Program-made: the position numbers and the translations under genes
Source of the DNA: Labilithrix sp.
GTDB lineage: Bacteria > Myxococcota_A > Polyangia > Polyangiales > Polyangiaceae
Length of the DNA stretch: 64,000 nt
Direction: 5' to 3'
Assembly: GCA_044227045.1 (NCBI GenBank)
Contig: JBGAFW010000037.1
Coordinates: 1,129-65,128, forward strand
The notes under the pieces: model-generated
Told to the model about the DNA's origin: nothing
The model's database searches: none
What the model saw: the letters and a program-made list of their open reading frames with translations, nothing else
Part shown: positions 12,861-24,356 of the stretch, in pieces
Numbering within the stretch: the stretch's first letter is position 1
How the letters are laid out: each line of letters opens with the position of its first letter

Positions 12861-14051
12861 GTGAACGACACGGATGCTCTCCTCGAGGAGTGGCGCAAAA
12901 CGCGCGCGTGTGATCTCGCCGACAAGATCCAGACGCTGGCGCCGGAGCCCGCGAAGCTCCTGGTCGACCTCTGGAAGGGCAAGAGTCAGGACGAAGGGAA
13001 GGCCGCGTTCGTGCGGCTCAAAGACGAGCCCGACGATCCACGCATGACGGTCATGTTCGTTCGGTGCTTTCACGCCGCCCGCTGGCCGGGGTCGGGCGCG
13101 AAGGCCTTGTGGACCGATATCCTCGCGAGGCTCGTCACGCTGCGCGACGCACGCGCGATCGCGCCGCTTCGCAGCGCGCTCGAAGACATGCCCCACTTCA
13201 TGGGCGTCGCGCACACGCGTTGGATGATCCTCGAGACCCGCAAGGCGGTCGACGCCCTCGAGAAGGCGTGCACGGCGAGCGGCGTCTCGATCCCGGCGGA
13301 GGTGTCTCCGTTCTTCGTTCGCGAGGCGCCTGTCGGGGCGCGCGCGTCGAAGCTGGCAGAGAGCGTGTGGGCGAAGCCCGAGGATGACGAGACGAAGCTC
13401 GTCGTCGCTGACGCGCTGATGGAACAGGGAGATCCCTGGGGCGAATTCATCACGCTCGGCTTCAAGATCGGCGACGGCACCGCGACAGAACAGATGAAGG
13501 AGCGGCATGCGTCGCTCTTGCACAAGAACGCGCCGCTCTTCGGCGGACCGATCGCGCACATCGCGACGAAGGATCTCTGGCGCTTCGAGAAAGGGTTCCT
13601 CGTCGCGTTTGCTGCCGATCGCTCGCAGGTGCCCCGCCGTCGGTGGGAAGAGGCCGCGAGCACACCTTACTGGTCGACGGTGCGAGAGGTGACCCTCCAC
13701 AGCGAGGCGCCGATGTGGTGGCTCACCGAGATCATGAAGAACCCCGCGACCGCAGGTCTTCGACTCCTCGTCGCGGCGCATGGAGGCCTTCGCTTCGAGC
13801 GCGAGCGCGGCGGTCCGTGGCACGTGACGCGCGTGCAGAAGGAGACGACGGGCTACTTTGCCAGCTACGGCATCCTCCCCGCGCTGACGGCGATGCTCAA
13901 AGGTCTTCGACCCGAAGACCGCGCGAGCGTGATCTTCGACGAAGCCATGGATCAGGAGACGCGCGAGAGCTTCGAGAATGCGCGTTCGTCGATCGACCGC
14001 CCGCCTGCCAAAGCCAGAAAGAAGAAGAAGACGAGCGCCGCGAGCACGTAA
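12861..14051 (+). CDS. TIGR02996-type repeat-companion domain protein
   Basis: 396 aa. Central motif KLVVADALMEQGDPWGEFITLG. High GC3. Confidence 0.65.
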   Translation: MNDTDALLEEWRKTRACDLADKIQTLAPEPAKLLVDLWKGKSQDEGKAAFVRLKDEPDDPRMTVMFVRCFHAARWPGSGAKALWTDILARLVTLRDARAIAPLRSALEDMPHFMGVAHTRWMILETRKAVDALEKACTASGVSIPAEVSPFFVREAPVGARASKLAESVWAKPEDDETKLVVADALMEQGDPWGEFITLGFKIGDGTATEQMKERHASLLHKNAPLFGGPIAHIATKDLWRFEKGFLVAFAADRSQVPRRRWEEAASTPYWSTVREVTLHSEAPMWWLTEIMKNPATAGLRLLVAAHGGLRFERERGGPWHVTRVQKETTGYFASYGILPALTAMLKGLRPEDRASVIFDEAMDQETRESFENARSSIDRPPAKARKKKKTSAAST

Positions 14052-16311: not shown

Positions 16312-17505
16312 TCATTCGAGGGCCGCGCGCGCGAGCGATGCGCCGATGCCTTTACTCGAGGCGCGCGGGCGCGCGATGTCGACGTTGTCCGTCCACGCGA
16401 GGATCGCGCGATGCTCTTCGGGGAAGTAGGCCGAGAAGAAGCGCACGTTGCCGAAGGTGCCTGGGCGCTCGACGAGCGTCGTCGTTCCTCCCTCGGGCTT
16501 GCCAAACGGAAAGGCCCAGCATCCGTACGCGCCGTGATTGCGGTCGGGTCGTCCGTCGAACAACGTCTTCTTCGAGTCGTCCGAGAGGAGCACGTTCGAG
16601 TCGAGCGCTTCGAAGAAGGAGAGGAGGTCCGAGGCCGAGGCGTACCCCGCCCCCGCCGTGAAGAAGTTCTGCGGGCGGACGGCGCCCATGATCGTGAGGT
16701 CGAGGTCGGTGGGCGCCTTCTTCGACAAGAGCCCAGCATGCGTCATCTTCGCAGGCTCGAACACCTCACGGCGAAGCACGCCCTCCGCGTCGGTCTTCGC
16801 GCGCGCAGCCAAGATCGCGCCGACGATCGCGAGCTCGGCGTTGCGATATTTGTAGGTGCCTCGCTTCTCGGTGAAGTCTGCTGGGATGTGTTTGAGCAAT
16901 ACCGATACGACAGCACCTTGTGTCGATACGTCGATATCCGCTTTACGGTAATAGCCACCACGCTCGTCGAGCTCAGGGACGCGCGACGTATGCGTGAGAA
17001 GCTCGCGAATCGTGCTGTCCGACCACGGGCGAGACGCAAGCTCGGGCAACGCCGTCTTGATCGTCTCGTCGAGCGACAGCTCTCCGCGCTCGACCATTCG
17101 GAGCGTCGCGACTGCGGTGAGGAGCTTCGTGAACGACGCGACGAGCACGGGGCGATCGGCGAGGACAGCATTCGCGCCGTCGGCCGAGGGCATCGCGACG
17201 AACGTACGCTTGCTGGTTGGCGCGCTTCCAGCCAACGCAAACGACGACATCGCGACGAATCCGTGGGCGTTCGTCCCGCGAAATGGAGCGGTGAGGTGAT
17301 CGTTCGGCGGAAGATCGGTGGCGACCGCGCCGGCGCCTACGCCTGCCGCGTCAAAGGCGGGATGGGAGAGGGACGCGCCCGGTCGATCGCTGCGGGCGTC
17401 CGAAGGTGCGTCAGCGCGGACGGCGCCGACCTCGGCCTCCGCGTCGCGATCGATCCGCGGTGGTGTCGTGTCGCGACAGCCGATCACGAGCCACGGCCCA
17501 GCCAT
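16312..17505 (-). CDS. serine hydrolase, beta-lactamase/PBP-like family
   Basis: SxxK motif (ASFTKLL). The real start is ATG 17505 (MAGPWLVIGC, possible lipobox). The upstream 122 codons of the ORF are Arg-rich shadow. Confidence 0.65.
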   Translation of the reverse strand: MAGPWLVIGCRDTTPPRIDRDAEAEVGAVRADAPSDARSDRPGASLSHPAFDAAGVGAGAVATDLPPNDHLTAPFRGTNAHGFVAMSSFALAGSAPTSKRTFVAMPSADGANAVLADRPVLVASFTKLLTAVATLRMVERGELSLDETIKTALPELASRPWSDSTIRELLTHTSRVPELDERGGYYRKADIDVSTQGAVVSVLLKHIPADFTEKRGTYKYRNAELAIVGAILAARAKTDAEGVLRREVFEPAKMTHAGLLSKKAPTDLDLTIMGAVRPQNFFTAGAGYASASDLLSFFEALDSNVLLSDDSKKTLFDGRPDRNHGAYGCWAFPFGKPEGGTTTLVERPGTFGNVRFFSAYFPEEHRAILAWTDNVDIARPRASSKGIGASLARAALE

Positions 17506-17579
17506 GACCAAGGCGAAGACGCGCGAAAATCGCGGCGGTGGTTCTAGACGCTTCACGGTGAAGGAGGCAGGATGGTGTT

Positions 17580-17891
17580 GTGGACGCGCCCGAACCGCAA
17601 GAGAAAGAGGCTGGTCTTCCCGCAATTCGCGTGCTCGTCGACGCTTGCCTCGCAGGACGTCGCGCCGACAAGCCGGATCTCGACACGGAGCTCGTCGTCG
17701 CCGATTGGTGCGAGGAGCACGGTCTCCTCGGCATCGCCAATGCCGTGCGCATGACCGACGGCAACATGCGCTGGAGCGCGCTTGCCCACCTATGGCGCTG
17801 CATCGAGCCGACGTTCTGGATGTCGCCCTCTCCGACCCCGCCGAAGCCAGCCGAGGCGAAAGCCACGCCACGTCGACGAAAGCGTGCCTAG
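17580..17891 (+). CDS. small protein with degenerate TIGR02996-like motif (LVVADWCEEHG)
   Basis: GTG start. GC3 is high from about 17620 onward. AGGAGG lies at 17561-17566. The protein is only 103 aa and the call is tentative. Confidence 0.35.
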   Translation: MDAPEPQEKEAGLPAIRVLVDACLAGRRADKPDLDTELVVADWCEEHGLLGIANAVRMTDGNMRWSALAHLWRCIEPTFWMSPSPTPPKPAEAKATPRRRKRA

Positions 17892-19132
17892 TTGTCTCGG
17901 TAAATCGACACGCGCTGGATGTTCACGGGCGTCGTCGGCGCATCGCCGACCGAGGTGGGCACCGAGGCGATGTCGTGGATCGTCGTGAGCGATGACGTGG
18001 ACGTGCATTCTCCAAACACCGTGTACGACCCGTCGATGTGAGGTGCCGCCGCGTCGGTGATGAAGAACTGCGCGCCGTTGGTGTTCGGACCACGGTTGGC
18101 CATGCAGAGCAGGCCAGCGCGATCGTGCTTCGCGCCTTCCCAGTTCTCGTCGTTGAAGACATAGCCAGGCTCGCCGGTGCCCTTCTTGAGCGGGTCACCA
18201 CCTTGAATCATGAAGCCCTTGATCGTCCGGTGAAAAGACGAGTTGTCGTAGGCCGGCTTGTTTTGCCACTTCATGAGCAAGGGATCGCGCCAAATGCGTT
18301 TACCCGTCGCGAGCCCAATGTAATTTGCGACCGTATTTGGGGCCTTCGTGTCGTAGAGCTGACACGTAATTCGCCCACGTGACGTATCGATATCCGTCAT
18401 GAGCTTGCCCGTGCCTGGCAAGTCTTGCGTCGCGTCGAAAATCGTATAGCTGCCTTTTAGGGGATCGGCTCCGGGCGGATTGTCGATCGAAGGGTGGCTA
18501 TCGCCGTCCCGACTCACCTCGAGGAGCTCGACCTCGAAGACGAGGGTGGACTTCGGTGGAATAACCCCACCCGCGCCGCGATCTCCATAGCCGAGGTGTG
18601 GCGGGATCGTGAGCTTTCGCTTCCCGCCGACCTTCATCCCCACGACACCCGTGTCCCAACCCTTGATGACGCGCCCCTTGCCGAGATCGAACGCGAACGG
18701 AGTGGGGCCGTGCTTGCGTGAGGAGTCAAACTCTTTGCCATCAGAGAGCGTGCCGACGTAGTGGACCTTCACGGCGTCACCCGAACGCGCCGTCGCGCCC
18801 GTCCCAATAACGAGGTCATCGATGACGAGCGGGGTGGTGTGTCCCTCTGGGCTCGGGCCTTTAACGGGCGGTGTTGTCGTGGGCGCGGTCGTCTCGGTCG
18901 TCGGGACGGTCTTCGATGTCGGCTCCGGATTTTCGGTGGTCACCGGACCTTTGTATTGAATCCCGTGAAGGACGCCCGCGCCTCCGACCGAGCACAGCAC
19001 GACGAGCACCCCGTACGCAGGCCACGCGACCGGACGCCGGGTGTTGTTGTACGAGCCCGGTCGTGGTGGAGGAGGAGGGTTCGTTTGAAAGGGCTGGGGT
19101 GGTTGCACGGCAGGCTCGCTGCTCATCAACAT
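17888..19132 (-). CDS. dual-domain peptidyl-prolyl isomerase: N-terminal Pro-rich region plus TM anchor, FKBP-type domain, cyclophilin-type domain
   Basis: FKBP motifs VKVHYVGTLSDGKEFDSS...GWDTGVVGMKVGGKRKLTIPPHLGYG. Cyclophilin motifs FHRTIKGFMIQGGDP...LLCMANRGPNTNGAQFFIT. TM segment VLVVLCSVGGAGVL. Confidence 0.8.
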   Translation of the reverse strand: MLMSSEPAVQPPQPFQTNPPPPPRPGSYNNTRRPVAWPAYGVLVVLCSVGGAGVLHGIQYKGPVTTENPEPTSKTVPTTETTAPTTTPPVKGPSPEGHTTPLVIDDLVIGTGATARSGDAVKVHYVGTLSDGKEFDSSRKHGPTPFAFDLGKGRVIKGWDTGVVGMKVGGKRKLTIPPHLGYGDRGAGGVIPPKSTLVFEVELLEVSRDGDSHPSIDNPPGADPLKGSYTIFDATQDLPGTGKLMTDIDTSRGRITCQLYDTKAPNTVANYIGLATGKRIWRDPLLMKWQNKPAYDNSSFHRTIKGFMIQGGDPLKKGTGEPGYVFNDENWEGAKHDRAGLLCMANRGPNTNGAQFFITDAAAPHIDGSYTVFGECTSTSSLTTIHDIASVPTSVGDAPTTPVNIQRVSIYRDN

Positions 19133-21921: not shown

Positions 21922-22521
21922 ATGCCCTGCGGAATGAGTCTCCAACTCGGATGGATCCCGGTTCGAAGGACCGTGAGCGCCGATGCCGATGTCGAATCGC
22001 ACGACTCGATCGAGGTCGCTGTGCGGCTTCTTCCCATCCTCGACGAAGCGTCACTCGGAGAGATTCTCCGCGCAGGCCTCGAGGAGCGCGGATGGCAGCG
22101 CCAGCCCGACGGCACACTCACGAAGCAGTTCGGCGAGGCTACCGCCACGTTGCCGGCAGACGGATCGGTCATCACTCTCGCGATCAAGGCGGAGACGTCG
22201 GTGTCGGTCTCCGCGACGGAAGACGGCGCAGCTCCCGAGGACGACAAGAAGGCACAAGACGCGATCGAAGAGCGGGCGCGTGAAGCCGCTGCTCGCAAGC
22301 TTGGCTCTGCGGAGCGATCGGCGAGGCGTGAGCTCGAGCGCAAGAACGCCGACGAGCTGCTGCGCGTCGAGCAAGACCTCCGCAAAGAGGTCGCCGAGCT
22401 GGTGAACCAGACGACGAAGAAGGCGCTCGAGCGCCGCGCGACGTCCCTCGGGCAAATCGACTCGATCGAAGAGCGGCGCGGTGAAGAAGGCTACGAGCTG
22501 ACGATCACGGTGAGGACCTAG
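21922..22521 (+). CDS. hypothetical protein with C-terminal predicted coiled coil
   Basis: 199 aa. GC3 is strongly coding. No recognisable domain. Confidence 0.5.
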   Translation: MPCGMSLQLGWIPVRRTVSADADVESHDSIEVAVRLLPILDEASLGEILRAGLEERGWQRQPDGTLTKQFGEATATLPADGSVITLAIKAETSVSVSATEDGAAPEDDKKAQDAIEERAREAAARKLGSAERSARRELERKNADELLRVEQDLRKEVAELVNQTTKKALERRATSLGQIDSIEERRGEEGYELTITVRT

Positions 22522-22539
22522 CAAGGGTACGGACGAATC

Positions 22540-22827
22540 ATGAAGATCGATCGAGGCCGCAAAATCACGCTCACGTACCGCGAAAATGGCGGCACCGGCA
22601 AAGCCACCCTGATCGTCGATGTCTCTGCCGACGAAGGCGAGCTCCCGCACGAGCACCGTGACGACCTCAAAGACGTCGCCGCTGAGCTCCTCGGCGTCCC
22701 GCTCGACTCCCTCGAGGACGTCGAGGTCGAGTTGAAGCGCACCGGCGGCGATCACACGCATCCGCATCCGCACCCCGTAGTCCTACCGTCGAGCGACGAG
22801 TCGTCTCCGGAAAAGGCAAAAGCGTAG
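22540..22827 (+). CDS. small hypothetical protein (His/Pro-rich tail HTHPHPHP)
   Basis: 95 aa with good GC3. Lies 18 nt downstream of 21922..22521, so co-transcription is likely. Confidence 0.45.
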   Translation: MKIDRGRKITLTYRENGGTGKATLIVDVSADEGELPHEHRDDLKDVAAELLGVPLDSLEDVEVELKRTGGDHTHPHPHPVVLPSSDESSPEKAKA

Positions 22828-22892: not shown

Positions 22893-24356
22893 TCAGGTCG
22901 TGGTCGAGGCGAAGAGACCCTCGAACCGAATGCCCACGTGCGTGCTCGTGCGGTCGCGCATCTCGCGAACCCACTCGCGTAGCGTCGACTCGAGGAGCGC
23001 CGGATCCTGAGCGATGCTGCGCTCGGGAGGCTCGGCGACCGGCCCCGAGGCCGACAGCCGCGTGAGCTCGCGCATGCCGATGACACCTTCGCGGATCGCG
23101 AGGCGCAAAGGACCCTGCGACCAAAGGTAATTGGCGCTCTGCCAGTCGATCGTCAGGTCCGTTGGCCGCGCGTGCATGTCGCGTCGGAGCGTGAGGCGGA
23201 TCGTGGGACTCTCGAACATCACGGGCAGCGAGCCCACGACGCAGAGCTCTTGAACGCAGCGGATGGCCCCCTGGATCAACAGCTCCTGCCAATCGGGGAG
23301 GTTCGAGAACGCCGACACGATCGAGAGGCTCAGCACGTGATCGCCGCAAATCGACTGAAGTGTAGAGAGCAGCTCCTGACGCTCGTTCGAGTCGACGAGC
23401 GTGAGCCGCCGCAGACGGCGTGGAGCGGCCGAGGATGACGAGCTCACGAGGCTCGGCAAAAGCTCGAGGAGCTTCTTCGGCGCGCGTTCGTCGGAACCCC
23501 AAACGACGATGAGCTCCTCGACGTCGGGCATCGCGTGGCGTTCGATCAGCTTCTCGATGACCGCGGTGGACGCCGTCAACGCCTCGAGATGCGTCAAGAC
23601 AGGGTGTCCGACGAGCTGAACGATATCGCTGTCCGCCATGTATTGTGCGCGCGCGTTGATCCGCCGCACCGTGCGCCACTTCGGATCGCCGATCGCCAGG
23701 TTGACGACGCCGCGCTGACGCCGGTCGAGCCTCACCTCTTCGAGCAGGCCGCGTCTCCAGATCCGTGTGCTCGTGACGTCGGCGATCGCGCCGAGCCACT
23801 CCCAGTTGTACCTCTCGATCAATGCCTTGTGGCGGTCGGCTTGGACAGTCGAGAGCGCGCCGCGCTCGAAGCCGCAGGCAAGGTGAATGTACTCGCCGTG
23901 CTCGTCTCCGCGATCGAGCAGCCAATCCGCGTAGACGAGGTAGGGGCTGTCGTCGTCGGGCGGCGCGCGCCGTATCGCCGCGATGAGCTCGCCTTCGATC
24001 GTGGATGAGTCACGGGAGGCGCCGCTTGCCTTCTTGGGTGTCTTCTTCGCATCGGGCTCGTCGGCGTAGGGACCTACCGGCGGCGTGTATTGGAAACCGC
24101 GTGGGAGGACGTCGAAGGGATCCCAACCCGCGGCGCGTGCCTCGAGGATCAGCCTGCGGACGTACGATGGGAGGACGAGCACAGGACGGCGAAGGTTGAT
24201 CGTGAGGCCGCTCCGCTTTCCCGTCGGGCTCGTCGCGGGCACGACCACCACGCCGAGCCAATCGAAGTTGGTCGAGTATTCGTCGGCCGTGCGAATGTCC
24301 CATCGGTACTCGATGTCATCGATGACGATGCGACGCGAAGGCTTGCGTTTGGCCAT
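22893..24356 (-). CDS. TIGR02996-type repeat-companion domain protein with LRR-like C-terminal region
   Basis: 487 aa. Motif PYLVYADWLLDRGDEHGEYIHLA. N-terminal WGR-like segment (IEYRWDIRTADEY...). Confidence 0.7.
   Translation of the reverse strand: MAKRKPSRRIVIDDIEYRWDIRTADEYSTNFDWLGVVVVPATSPTGKRSGLTINLRRPVLVLPSYVRRLILEARAAGWDPFDVLPRGFQYTPPVGPYADEPDAKKTPKKASGASRDSSTIEGELIAAIRRAPPDDDSPYLVYADWLLDRGDEHGEYIHLACGFERGALSTVQADRHKALIERYNWEWLGAIADVTSTRIWRRGLLEEVRLDRRQRGVVNLAIGDPKWRTVRRINARAQYMADSDIVQLVGHPVLTHLEALTASTAVIEKLIERHAMPDVEELIVVWGSDERAPKKLLELLPSLVSSSSSAAPRRLRRLTLVDSNERQELLSTLQSICGDHVLSLSIVSAFSNLPDWQELLIQGAIRCVQELCVVGSLPVMFESPTIRLTLRRDMHARPTDLTIDWQSANYLWSQGPLRLAIREGVIGMRELTRLSASGPVAEPPERSIAQDPALLESTLREWVREMRDRTSTHVGIRFEGLFASTTT

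What the first reader, a model, noticed from the sequence alone, without database searches (positions are those of the whole stretch)
17888..19132. Membrane-anchored FKBP-cyclophilin dual-family peptidyl-prolyl isomerase
A single 414-aa protein carries an N-terminal Pro-rich segment and TM helix, then a complete FKBP domain, then a complete cyclophilin domain with the active-site regions conserved. Fusions of the two unrelated PPIase families are rare; I recall them only from a few organisms such as apicomplexans, spirochaetes and Bacteroidetes. The TM anchor suggests a periplasm- or membrane-facing folding catalyst.
Basis: partly seen in the sequence, partly recalled or inferred. Interest (0 to 1): 0.55.

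Follow-up and report, generated by a model that had tools for sequence, protein, structure and literature searches.

The report
Membrane-anchored bacterial FKBP–cyclophilin fusion isomerase
This gene really does encode one protein that joins two unrelated proline-isomerase (protein-folding) enzymes behind a membrane anchor; it belongs to a small family found in one group of soil myxobacteria, and its domain order is one that published surveys say bacteria do not have.

Summary
ORF 17888-19132 (-) encodes a 414-aa protein with five parts: a Pro-rich basic tail, one hydrophobic helix (aa 37-58), a disordered Thr/Pro spacer, a full FKBP domain (Pfam E 3.5e-36), and a full cyclophilin domain (E 1.5e-39) after a ~16-aa linker. 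The FKBP pocket residues are all kept. The cyclophilin catalytic set is kept, apart from W121->His and H126->Tyr.

It is not an assembly artefact. About 65 metagenome clusters and 8 Polyangiaceae/Polyangiales MAG species carry the same uninterrupted layout.

The closest single-domain relatives of both modules are lipoproteins from the same family. These relatives, together with positive-inside charge bias in 47 of 61 members, argue that the catalytic domains face the periplasm from an inner-membrane anchor.

There is no conserved operon.

Published surveys of dual-family PPIases allow only CYN-linker-FKBP in prokaryotes and FKBP-3TPR-CYN in eukaryotes. This protein is a bacterial FKBP-short linker-CYN with no TPR and a membrane anchor, so it is a third arrangement. 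I found no paper describing it, although source databases annotate members generically as PPIases.

Verdict: real, interpretation supported, a new variant of a known kind, moderate-to-low interest. Activity, topology and clients are untested.

The parts
17888..19132 (-). Complete CDS, 414 codons plus stop (stop codon at 17888-17890)
   Evidence: ORF list. GC3 is 75% overall. The closest relative, P0001 (94% identity), is called as a 410-aa gene whose start corresponds to codon 5 of this ORF, on contig L081.
19025..19132 (-). aa 1-36: Pro-rich, net-basic N-terminal tail, predicted cytoplasmic
   Evidence: The tail has 3 K/R and 1 D/E, with RR directly before the helix. Homolog tails vary in sequence but are K/R-rich, averaging 6.95 K+R. 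pLDDT is about 51-58.
18959..19024 (-). aa 37-58: single hydrophobic segment, predicted signal-anchor TM helix
   Evidence: Kyte-Doolittle 19-mer mean 1.78. AF2 helix at 37-55. A comparable segment is present in 61 of 61 aligned members (mean KD 1.99, minimum 1.44), often flanked by Trp.
18833..18958 (-). aa 59-100: Thr/Pro-rich disordered spacer
   Evidence: Contains 13 Thr and 9 Pro in 42 residues. pLDDT is below 50 over aa 57-96.
18515..18832 (-). aa 101-206: FKBP-type PPIase domain
   Evidence: Pfam PF00254 E 3.5e-36. 50% identical to human FKBP12 with Y26, F36, D37, F46, V55, I56, W59, Y82 and F99 all kept. 68% identical to B. pseudomallei Mip-like FKBP, with the model at rmsd 0.6 A.
18467..18514 (-). 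aa 207-222: short inter-domain linker, no TPR
   Evidence: Low pLDDT: block means 57-66, and below 50 at aa 216-218. Linker length is 5-22 aa across homologs. No Pfam TPR hit.
17891..18466 (-). aa 223-414: cyclophilin-type PPIase domain, including a clade-specific N-terminal extension (aa 223-245)
   Evidence: Pfam PF00160 E 1.5e-39. CypA R55, F60, M61, Q63, A101, N102, Q111 and F113 are kept; A103->R347, W121->H365, L122->I366, H126->Y370. The model matches M. tuberculosis PpiA 1W74 at TM 0.92 and 42% identity. The extension DPLKG..F.(L/I).DATK is shared with the lipoprotein cyclophilins.

Best explanation
The gene encodes a genuine two-family peptidyl-prolyl isomerase, tethered to the inner membrane by an uncleaved N-terminal signal-anchor helix. 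The short basic Pro-rich tail stays in the cytoplasm. The FKBP and cyclophilin domains sit in the periplasm at the end of a flexible Thr/Pro spacer of about 40 residues, joined to each other by a linker of about 16 residues.

Shown: domain content, conservation of catalytic residues, conservation of the whole layout in a Polyangiaceae-restricted family, and the absence of a conserved operon.

Inferred: the N-in/C-out topology. Also inferred is that both domains catalyse cis-trans isomerisation of Xaa-Pro bonds in envelope and secreted proteins as they emerge unfolded from the Sec translocon, giving two complementary substrate specificities at one membrane-proximal site. This would be functionally analogous to combining E. 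coli PpiD (anchor), FkpA (FKBP) and PpiA (cyclophilin).

The fusion was most likely assembled within the lineage from its own periplasmic lipoprotein FKBP and lipoprotein cyclophilin, with a TM helix replacing the lipid anchor. The cyclophilin is probably poorly sensitive to cyclosporin, because His (or Ser in most homologs) replaces Trp121.
For: Domains and scores. PDB sequence and fold matches. Catalytic residues: invariant in the 61-sequence alignment A3. Layout conserved in about 65 clusters, with a TM-like segment and a 5-22 aa linker. Eight Polyangiaceae/Polyangiales MAG species carry the fusion.

Topology: more K/R in the 15 aa before the helix than after it in 47 of 61 members (8 equal, 6 fewer). 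The closest cyclophilin-only relatives (58-68% identity to the matching part of the query) all begin with a signal peptide, a lipobox Cys and a Pro-rich spacer. The closest FKBP-only relatives (72-79% identity, Labilithrix/Polyangiaceae) mostly do the same; 71 of 104 match a strict lipobox pattern. Three Cys (C257, C343, C376) are conserved in both the fusion and the lipoprotein cyclophilins.

AF2 model: TM helix 37-55, disordered 57-96, both domains mostly at pLDDT >90, linker low. Five MAGs hold both the fusion and a lipoprotein cyclophilin paralog.
Against: No dedicated topology or signal-peptide predictor was available. The hydrophobic segment is followed by small residues (GGAG), so cleavage by signal peptidase cannot be excluded. 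The charge bias in the window protein itself is modest (2 K/R before against 1 after). The Kyte-Doolittle score of 1.78 is only slightly above the usual 1.6 threshold. No enzymatic, localisation or client data exist for any family member. Gene neighbourhood gives no functional hint, because synteny holds only among close relatives. H126->Tyr and A103->Arg in the cyclophilin site differ from CypA. I recall that Tyr occurs at this position in active E. coli cyclophilins, but I did not verify that here. The NJ trees are too poorly resolved to say whether the fusion arose once.
Confidence: 0.72

Rival explanations
1. The hydrophobic segment is a cleavable Sec signal peptide with an unusually long n-region. 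The mature protein would then be a soluble periplasmic or secreted FKBP-cyclophilin rather than a membrane-anchored one.
For: Small residues (S-V-G-G-A-G) follow the hydrophobic core. Many homologs have A-W-A-like motifs at the end of the segment. The single-domain relatives are exported proteins.
Against: The n-region is 36 aa here and up to about 110 aa in homologs. The hydrophobic stretch is about 19-22 residues, modelled as one continuous helix, and is commonly bracketed by Trp as in TM helices. This is longer than a typical signal-peptide h-region (established knowledge). No predictor was run.
Confidence: 0.13
2. The topology is reversed (N-out/C-in). The two PPIase domains would face the cytoplasm, held at the membrane to fold nascent membrane or multisubunit proteins. 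This is the 'translational co-folding centre' model proposed for dual-family PPIases.
For: Barik's model places dual-family PPIases at membranes next to ribosomes. The FKBP domain's best PDB matches are small single-domain FKBPs.
Against: Positive-inside bias favours N-in in 47 of 61 members. Both modules are nearest to lipoproteins with Sec/SPII-type signals. The Thr/Pro-rich spacer resembles the post-lipobox spacers of those lipoproteins.
Confidence: 0.08
3. Only one domain is catalytic. The cyclophilin, with Tyr at 126, Arg at 103 and no Trp121, would act mainly as a proline-binding or chaperone module and not as an isomerase.
For: Three positions in or near the CypA active site differ, and R347 and Y370 are invariant in the family. 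This suggests a clade-specific site.
Against: The core catalytic residues R55, F60, Q63, N102 and F113 are invariant. The fold matches Mtb PpiA at TM 0.92. From memory, E. coli cyclophilins carry Tyr at the His126 position and are active.
Confidence: 0.1
4. The fusion is an artefact: two adjacent genes merged by a sequencing or assembly frameshift.
For: None was found.
Against: The same uninterrupted ORF occurs in about 65 independent clusters and 8 MAG species. GC3 is continuous through the linker. Stand-alone FKBP and cyclophilin genes are not neighbours in 72 related loci.
Confidence: 0.01

Closest known systems
CFBP-class dual-family PPIases (CYN-linker-FKBP) of Flavobacteria and spirochaetes, e.g. 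Flavobacterium johnsoniae FjCFBP39 (Barik 2017/2018; PMC5852385, PMC6316441)
   Same: Bacterial. One cyclophilin and one FKBP domain in a single chain. A flexible linker without TPR. Each domain looks catalytically complete.
   Different: The domain order is reversed (FKBP first). The linker is about 16 aa here against about 50 aa on average. This protein has an N-terminal TM anchor and a Thr/Pro spacer, which those papers do not describe. The lineage is different (Polyangiaceae, Myxococcota), and the modules derive from lineage-specific lipoprotein PPIases. Among the 150 best representative clusters, 18 have the CYN->FKBP order and only 3 have FKBP->CYN.
FCBP-class dual-family PPIases (FKBP-3TPR-CYN), e.g. 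Toxoplasma gondii FCBP57
   Same: The domain order is the same: FKBP then cyclophilin.
   Different: FCBPs are eukaryotic, always carry a three-TPR linker and have no TM anchor. The window protein has no TPR and is bacterial.
E. coli PpiD (inner-membrane-anchored periplasmic parvulin-like chaperone), together with FkpA and PpiA (soluble periplasmic FKBP and cyclophilin)
   Same: PpiD has the same predicted N-terminal single-pass anchor with a periplasmic folding-helper domain. FkpA and PpiA supply the same two catalytic families in the periplasm.
   Different: PpiD's domain is a parvulin, not an FKBP or cyclophilin. FkpA has a dimerisation/chaperone domain that is absent here. In E. coli the activities lie on separate proteins. 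This is a functional analogy, not homology of architecture. M. xanthus has 17 PPIases, each assigned to a single family, and only the parvulin Pin3 is TM-anchored (PMC13599543).
Polyangiaceae/Labilithrix lipoprotein FKBPs (~180 aa) and lipoprotein cyclophilins (~260 aa)
   Same: These are the closest sequence relatives of each module: 72-79% identity for FKBP and 58-68% for cyclophilin. They share the cyclophilin N-terminal extension and three Cys, and have a Pro-rich spacer between anchor and domain.
   Different: They are single-domain and anchored by a lipobox Cys, not a TM helix. The genes are not adjacent in 72 loci.
M. tuberculosis PpiA (Rv0009, PDB 1W74) and B. pseudomallei Mip-like FKBP BpML1 (PDB 2Y78/4DZ3)
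   Same: These are the best solved-structure matches for the two domains: TM 0.92 at 42% identity, and rmsd 0.6 A at 68% identity. Mtb PpiA also has His at the Trp121 position and the same inserted loop.
   Different: Both are single-domain proteins with no TM anchor.

Membership tests
FKBP-type PPIase (Pfam PF00254) | Profile match above the curated threshold over the full domain | tested here: met
   123.9 bits against a cutoff of 21.1, covering profile positions 4-94 of 94.
FKBP-type PPIase (Pfam PF00254) | FK506/substrate pocket residues (FKBP12 Y26, F36, D37, F46, V55, I56, W59, Y82, F99) | tested here: met
   All are identical in the pairwise alignment A1. Y125, D136, F146, V155, I156, W159, Y182 and F199 are invariant in 61 homologs, and F135 is >=90% conserved.
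FKBP-type PPIase (Pfam PF00254) | FKBP fold | tested here: met
   The AF2 domain is mostly at pLDDT >90. Foldseek gives rmsd 0.6 A over 103 columns to 4DZ3.
FKBP-type PPIase (Pfam PF00254) | PPIase activity inhibited by FK506/rapamycin | not testable with these tools
   Requires an enzyme assay.
Cyclophilin-type PPIase (Pfam PF00160) | Profile match above the curated threshold over the full domain | tested here: met
   136.2 bits against a cutoff of 21.7, covering profile positions 2-158 of 159.
Cyclophilin-type PPIase (Pfam PF00160) | Catalytic residues (CypA R55, F60, Q63, N102, F113, H126) | tested here: inconclusive
   R302, F307, Q310, N346 and F357 are kept and invariant. H126 is replaced by Y370, which is invariant in the family. 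From memory this substitution occurs in active E. coli cyclophilins, but I did not verify that here.
Cyclophilin-type PPIase (Pfam PF00160) | Trp121, the determinant of high-affinity cyclosporin A binding | tested here: not met
   His365 here, His in 20 of 21 lipoprotein relatives, and Ser in the consensus of the fusion family. This predicts weak CsA sensitivity but does not affect membership of the fold or enzyme family.
Cyclophilin-type PPIase (Pfam PF00160) | Cyclophilin beta-barrel fold | tested here: met
   Foldseek TM 0.92, rmsd 2.2 A to 1W74.
Dual-family PPIase, CFBP class (Barik) | Order CYN-linker-FKBP, prokaryotic, no TPR | tested here: not met
   The order is FKBP then CYN. The prokaryotic origin and the lack of TPR do fit.
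Dual-family PPIase, FCBP class (Barik) | Order FKBP-3TPR-CYN, in a unicellular eukaryote | tested here: not met
   The order matches, but there is no TPR hit and only a ~16-aa linker. All relatives are in Polyangiaceae/Myxococcota MAGs.
Dual-family PPIase (general sense: FKBP + cyclophilin in one polypeptide) | Both domains complete in one uninterrupted chain, conserved in relatives | tested here: met
Inner-membrane-anchored periplasmic PPIase (PpiD-like, functional class) | Single N-terminal TM anchor with the catalytic part in the periplasm | tested here: inconclusive
   A hydrophobic helix is present and conserved. Orientation is inferred from charge bias and from the lipoprotein relatives. 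No dedicated predictor or experiment was available.
Inner-membrane-anchored periplasmic PPIase (PpiD-like, functional class) | Parvulin-like domain (PpiD homology) | tested here: not met
   No rotamase/parvulin Pfam hit. This is an analogy only.

The most novel reading that the evidence does not exclude
The Polyangiaceae proteins form a third, so far undescribed class of dual-family PPIase. The class is bacterial, ordered FKBP->cyclophilin, lacks TPR, and is inner-membrane-anchored and periplasm-facing. It would have been built inside the lineage from its own lipoprotein FKBP and lipoprotein cyclophilin, and would work as a translocon-proximal foldase with two activities for envelope and secreted proteins. 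Two further FKBP->CYN fusions exist (P0182, a lipoprotein with a different type of cyclophilin, and P0250). Their existence would mean that this order has arisen repeatedly in bacterial envelopes, which contradicts the published rule that prokaryotes have only CYN->FKBP.
Probability: 0.55. Interest if true: 0.45.

Novelty: new variant of a known kind. Interest (0 to 1): 0.35.

Why it matters
The reviews on dual-family PPIases stress how rare these proteins are. They state a strict rule, 'no exceptions found so far': CYN-FKBP in prokaryotes, FKBP-3TPR-CYN in unicellular eukaryotes. On that basis they build a cytoplasmic co-folding model.

A family of about 65 clusters with FKBP-CYN order in bacteria breaks that rule. 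It is anchored in the membrane and most likely faces the periplasm, so two PPIase families have also been joined for envelope protein folding.

The family also gives a clear evolutionary case, since both parents are identifiable as lipoproteins in the same lineage. It offers a compact test system for whether tethering two PPIase specificities together gives any advantage over separate enzymes.

The practical impact is modest. The biochemistry of both domains is well understood, and the hosts are uncultured MAG lineages.

Tried and rejected
1. Conserved operon or functional partners. tblastn of 10 window neighbours against the 8 fusion loci found only the PPIase itself. All-vs-all ORF comparison showed shared neighbours only between close relatives, L003/L005 and L004/L006, plus shadow ORFs. 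Only the 94%-identical contig L081 keeps the window's order of PPIase, small ORF, beta-lactamase, VanZ. I rejected any operon-based inference.

2. Read-through origin from adjacent FKBP and cyclophilin genes. There is no FKBP within about ±8 kb of 72 cyclophilin-only loci.

3. Lipoprotein reading of the window's Cys47 (VVLC|S). The -1 residue is Leu (Leu, Met or Val in relatives), not Gly/Ala/Ser, and many homologs have no Cys in the segment at all. Rejected.

4. Paralogs in the window. No second FKBP or cyclophilin was found.

5. Promoter and terminator scan. It was uninformative: 0 promoter-like sites, and terminator-like sites at the background rate.

6. AlphaFold DB fold search to survey the architecture. 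The library was unavailable. I replaced it with the 1.84-billion-protein representative search.

7. Exact look-up of the window protein's contig. The look-up of encoding contigs found nothing on record, although listing of cluster members lists the protein from NCBI on a 98.9-kb contig. Taxonomy therefore rests on relatives.

8. Single versus multiple origin of the fusion. NJ trees of each domain interleave fusion and single-domain clades and are not decisive.

9. The FKBP-domain database search did not list the fusion proteins, although their FKBP domains are up to 96% identical to the query. This is a limitation of the candidate filter, so absence from that list carries no meaning.
Full report
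**1. Observation**

Pfam gives two hits and no others. FKBP_C covers aa 114-204 (E 3.5e-36, profile positions 4-94 of 94). Pro_isomerase covers aa 246-409 (E 1.5e-39, profile positions 2-158 of 159). NCBIfam adds only sub-threshold matches to FkpA/FklB-type FKBPs and PpiA/PpiB cyclophilins.

The N-terminus is Pro-rich (QPPQPFQTNPPPPPRPG). It is followed by RR and then by the only strongly hydrophobic stretch in the protein, with a Kyte-Doolittle 19-mer mean of 1.78 at aa 40-58. GC3 is 67-82% in every segment, including the tail, spacer and linker. The first in-frame upstream stop lies 36 codons before the ATG. The window is 62-68% G+C throughout.

**2. Not an artefact, and a family**

A search of 5.8 billion clustered proteins found about 70 clusters carrying both PF00254 and PF00160, all in the same order and 290-463 aa long. 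I mapped the domains with phmmer. Every full-length member has the same layout: a charged tail, one hydrophobic segment, a low-complexity spacer, FKBP, a 5-22 aa gap, then cyclophilin.

In GTDB species representatives, the intact fusion occurs in 7 loci plus one cut off at a contig end. All are Polyangiaceae, Polyangiales or 'Myxococcales' MAGs, at 60-65% identity to the window protein. The nearest relative, P0001, is 94% identical and lies on a 9.3-kb contig with the same local gene order. This rules out a frameshift or assembly fusion.

**3. Catalytic sites**

The FKBP domain is 50% identical to human FKBP12. It keeps Y26, F36, D37, F46, V55, I56, W59, Y82 and F99. It is 68% identical to the B. 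pseudomallei Mip-like FKBP.

Against human CypA, the cyclophilin domain keeps R55, F60, M61, Q63, A101, N102, Q111 and F113. Four positions differ: A103->R347, W121->H365, L122->I366 and H126->Y370.

In the 61-sequence family alignment A3, the following are invariant: Y125, D136, F146, V155, I156, W159, Y182 and F199 in FKBP, and R302, F307, Q310, N346, R347, Q355, F357 and Y370 in cyclophilin.

M. tuberculosis PpiA, the best structural match, also has His at the Trp121 position and shares the inserted loop, but it keeps His126. From memory, E. coli cyclophilins carry Tyr at the His126 position and are active, and Trp121 is the main determinant of cyclosporin affinity. On that basis I expect an active cyclophilin with weak CsA sensitivity. 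That is an inference.

**4. Structure**

The AlphaFold2 model built on A3 has mean pLDDT 80 and pTM 0.63. It shows a helix at aa 37-55, disorder (pLDDT below 50) over aa 57-96, a confident FKBP domain, a low-confidence linker at about aa 209-222, and a confident cyclophilin.

Foldseek against the PDB recovers each domain separately: 1W74 at TM 0.92, and 4DZ3 at rmsd 0.6 A. No solved chain spans both domains.

**5. Topology and origin**

Three lines of evidence point to periplasmic catalytic domains.

- Charge bias: 47 of 61 members have more K/R in the 15 residues before the helix than in the 15 after it, with 8 equal and 6 fewer.
- Cyclophilin relatives: the nearest cyclophilin-only proteins are about 260 aa and 58-68% identical to the matching part of the query. 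They are widespread in Polyangiaceae, including Labilithrix luteola. All begin with a signal peptide, a lipobox Cys and a Pro-rich spacer (CKSPPPELEPAP...). They share the N-terminal extension and three conserved Cys with the fusion's cyclophilin domain.
- FKBP relatives: the nearest FKBP-only proteins are 72-79% identical, about 180 aa, and from Labilithrix/Polyangiaceae. They are likewise lipoproteins with a CSKLTEPPKPEP... spacer.

So both modules belong to lineage-specific exported PPIase clades. The most economical reading is that the fusion was assembled within Polyangiaceae, with a signal-anchor helix replacing the lipid anchor.

Five MAGs carry both the fusion and a lipoprotein cyclophilin, so the fusion is an additional paralog and not a replacement. 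The single-domain genes are not neighbours in 72 loci, so simple read-through is not supported. NJ trees interleave fusion and single-domain clades and cannot decide between one origin and several.

**6. Context**

The neighbours are:

- a PF00144 serine beta-lactamase-family gene, whose real start probably lies near an internal lipobox;
- a VanZ-like gene;
- an MBL-fold alkyl-sulfatase-like gene;
- a beta-propeller lactonase-like gene.

None of these is conserved next to the fusion in other species. The gene therefore gives no operon clue and is probably expressed on its own. The consensus promoter and terminator scan was uninformative.

**7. Mechanism (best estimate)**

I propose a type II (N-in/C-out) inner-membrane protein. 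Its flexible Thr/Pro spacer lets a tandem FKBP-cyclophilin unit sweep the periplasmic face of the membrane. There it would accelerate prolyl isomerisation in proteins that emerge unfolded from Sec.

The two families have different preferences for the residue before Pro (established knowledge: FKBPs favour bulky hydrophobic residues, cyclophilins are broad). Joining them would widen client coverage at one site.

This works like a combination of E. coli PpiD (anchor), FkpA (FKBP) and PpiA (cyclophilin), but it is not homologous to PpiD. In M. xanthus, 17 PPIases were catalogued, each assigned to a single family, and only the parvulin Pin3 is membrane-anchored (PMC13599543).

The rival readings are a cleavable signal peptide, a cytoplasmic orientation, or an inert cyclophilin. 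They are less likely but not excluded.

**8. Comparison with what is known**

Barik's reviews define two classes of dual-family PPIase. CFBP (CYN-~50-aa linker-FKBP) is exclusively prokaryotic, mostly from Flavobacteria and spirochaetes. FCBP (FKBP-3TPR-CYN) is exclusively from unicellular eukaryotes. The reviews say 'no exceptions found so far' (PMC6316441; PMC5852385). Neither paper mentions myxobacteria, signal peptides or the periplasm; 'transmembrane' appears in them only in unrelated contexts.

The window protein fails the defining feature of each class. It has the wrong order for CFBP, and for FCBP it lacks TPR and is not eukaryotic. It does meet the general definition of a dual-family PPIase.

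An exhaustive HMMER search of 1.84 billion representatives gives a sense of proportion. Among the 150 best-scoring clusters, 18 have CYN before FKBP and only 3 have FKBP before CYN: this family (P0022), a 362-aa lipoprotein with a different type of cyclophilin (P0182), and a 539-aa protein with an extra N-terminal region (P0250). Literature searches found no description of this arrangement. Source databases annotate members only generically, as 'peptidyl-prolyl cis-trans isomerase'.

**9. Verdict**

This is a new variant of a known kind: a third dual-family PPIase architecture, restricted to one lineage and probably acting in the envelope. Both enzyme families are very well understood, and domain fusions among PPIases are common. 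The surprise to a specialist is therefore modest, and I score interest at 0.35. Activity, inhibitor sensitivity, topology and clients remain untested.

Noticed in passing
window 21922-22827 (+): Two adjacent ORFs hit Pfam families of the predicted 'FtsH ternary system'. These are fvmX5 (199 aa, E 3e-26) and fvmX3-analog (95 aa, E 5e-7). They may be part of a conflict/defence-type system about 3 kb from the PPIase gene.
   Followed up: no
window 16312-17871 (-): This is a PF00144 beta-lactamase-family ORF. The mechanically listed 519-aa ORF is over-extended: its first ~100 codons have low GC3 and Arg-rich nonsense. A lipoprotein-like start (…VMAGPWLVIGC…) lies near codon 105-131. The closest relative's contig calls a 417-aa gene here, preceded by a 78-aa ORF.
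   Followed up: partly
P0277-P0394 and P0090-P0120 (Polyangiaceae/Labilithrix proteins): The lineage's stand-alone FKBPs and cyclophilins are both lipoproteins. Their conserved motifs after the lipobox look alike (C-SKLTEPPKPEP... and C-KSPPPELEPAP...). This may be a shared tether or sorting element.
   Followed up: partly
P0182 (362 aa) and P0250 (539 aa): These are two further bacterial-looking FKBP->cyclophilin fusions outside this family. P0182 has a lipobox and a PpiB-like short cyclophilin. P0250 has a ~250-aa N-terminal region of unknown type. Their host taxa were not determined.
   Followed up: partly
window protein aa 257, 343, 376 (window nt ~18362-18364, 18104-18106, 18005-18007): Three cysteines in the cyclophilin domain are invariant or nearly so, both in the fusion family and in all 21 lipoprotein cyclophilins examined.
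   Followed up: no
window 12861-14051 (+) and 22893-24356 (-): Two large ORFs have no Pfam hit. 22893-24356 carries the motif 'SPYLVYADWLLDRGDEHGEYI' and 12861-14051 a looser version ('LVVADALMEQGDPWGEFI'). From memory this resembles the TIGR02996 repeat-companion domain common in Myxococcota and Planctomycetota. I did not test that.
   Followed up: no
one search compared (tool behaviour): The word-indexed homolog search with the FKBP domain alone listed only stand-alone FKBPs. It omitted the fusion proteins, although their FKBP domains are up to 96% identical to the query. Absence from that tool's top list is therefore not evidence of absence.
   Followed up: yes
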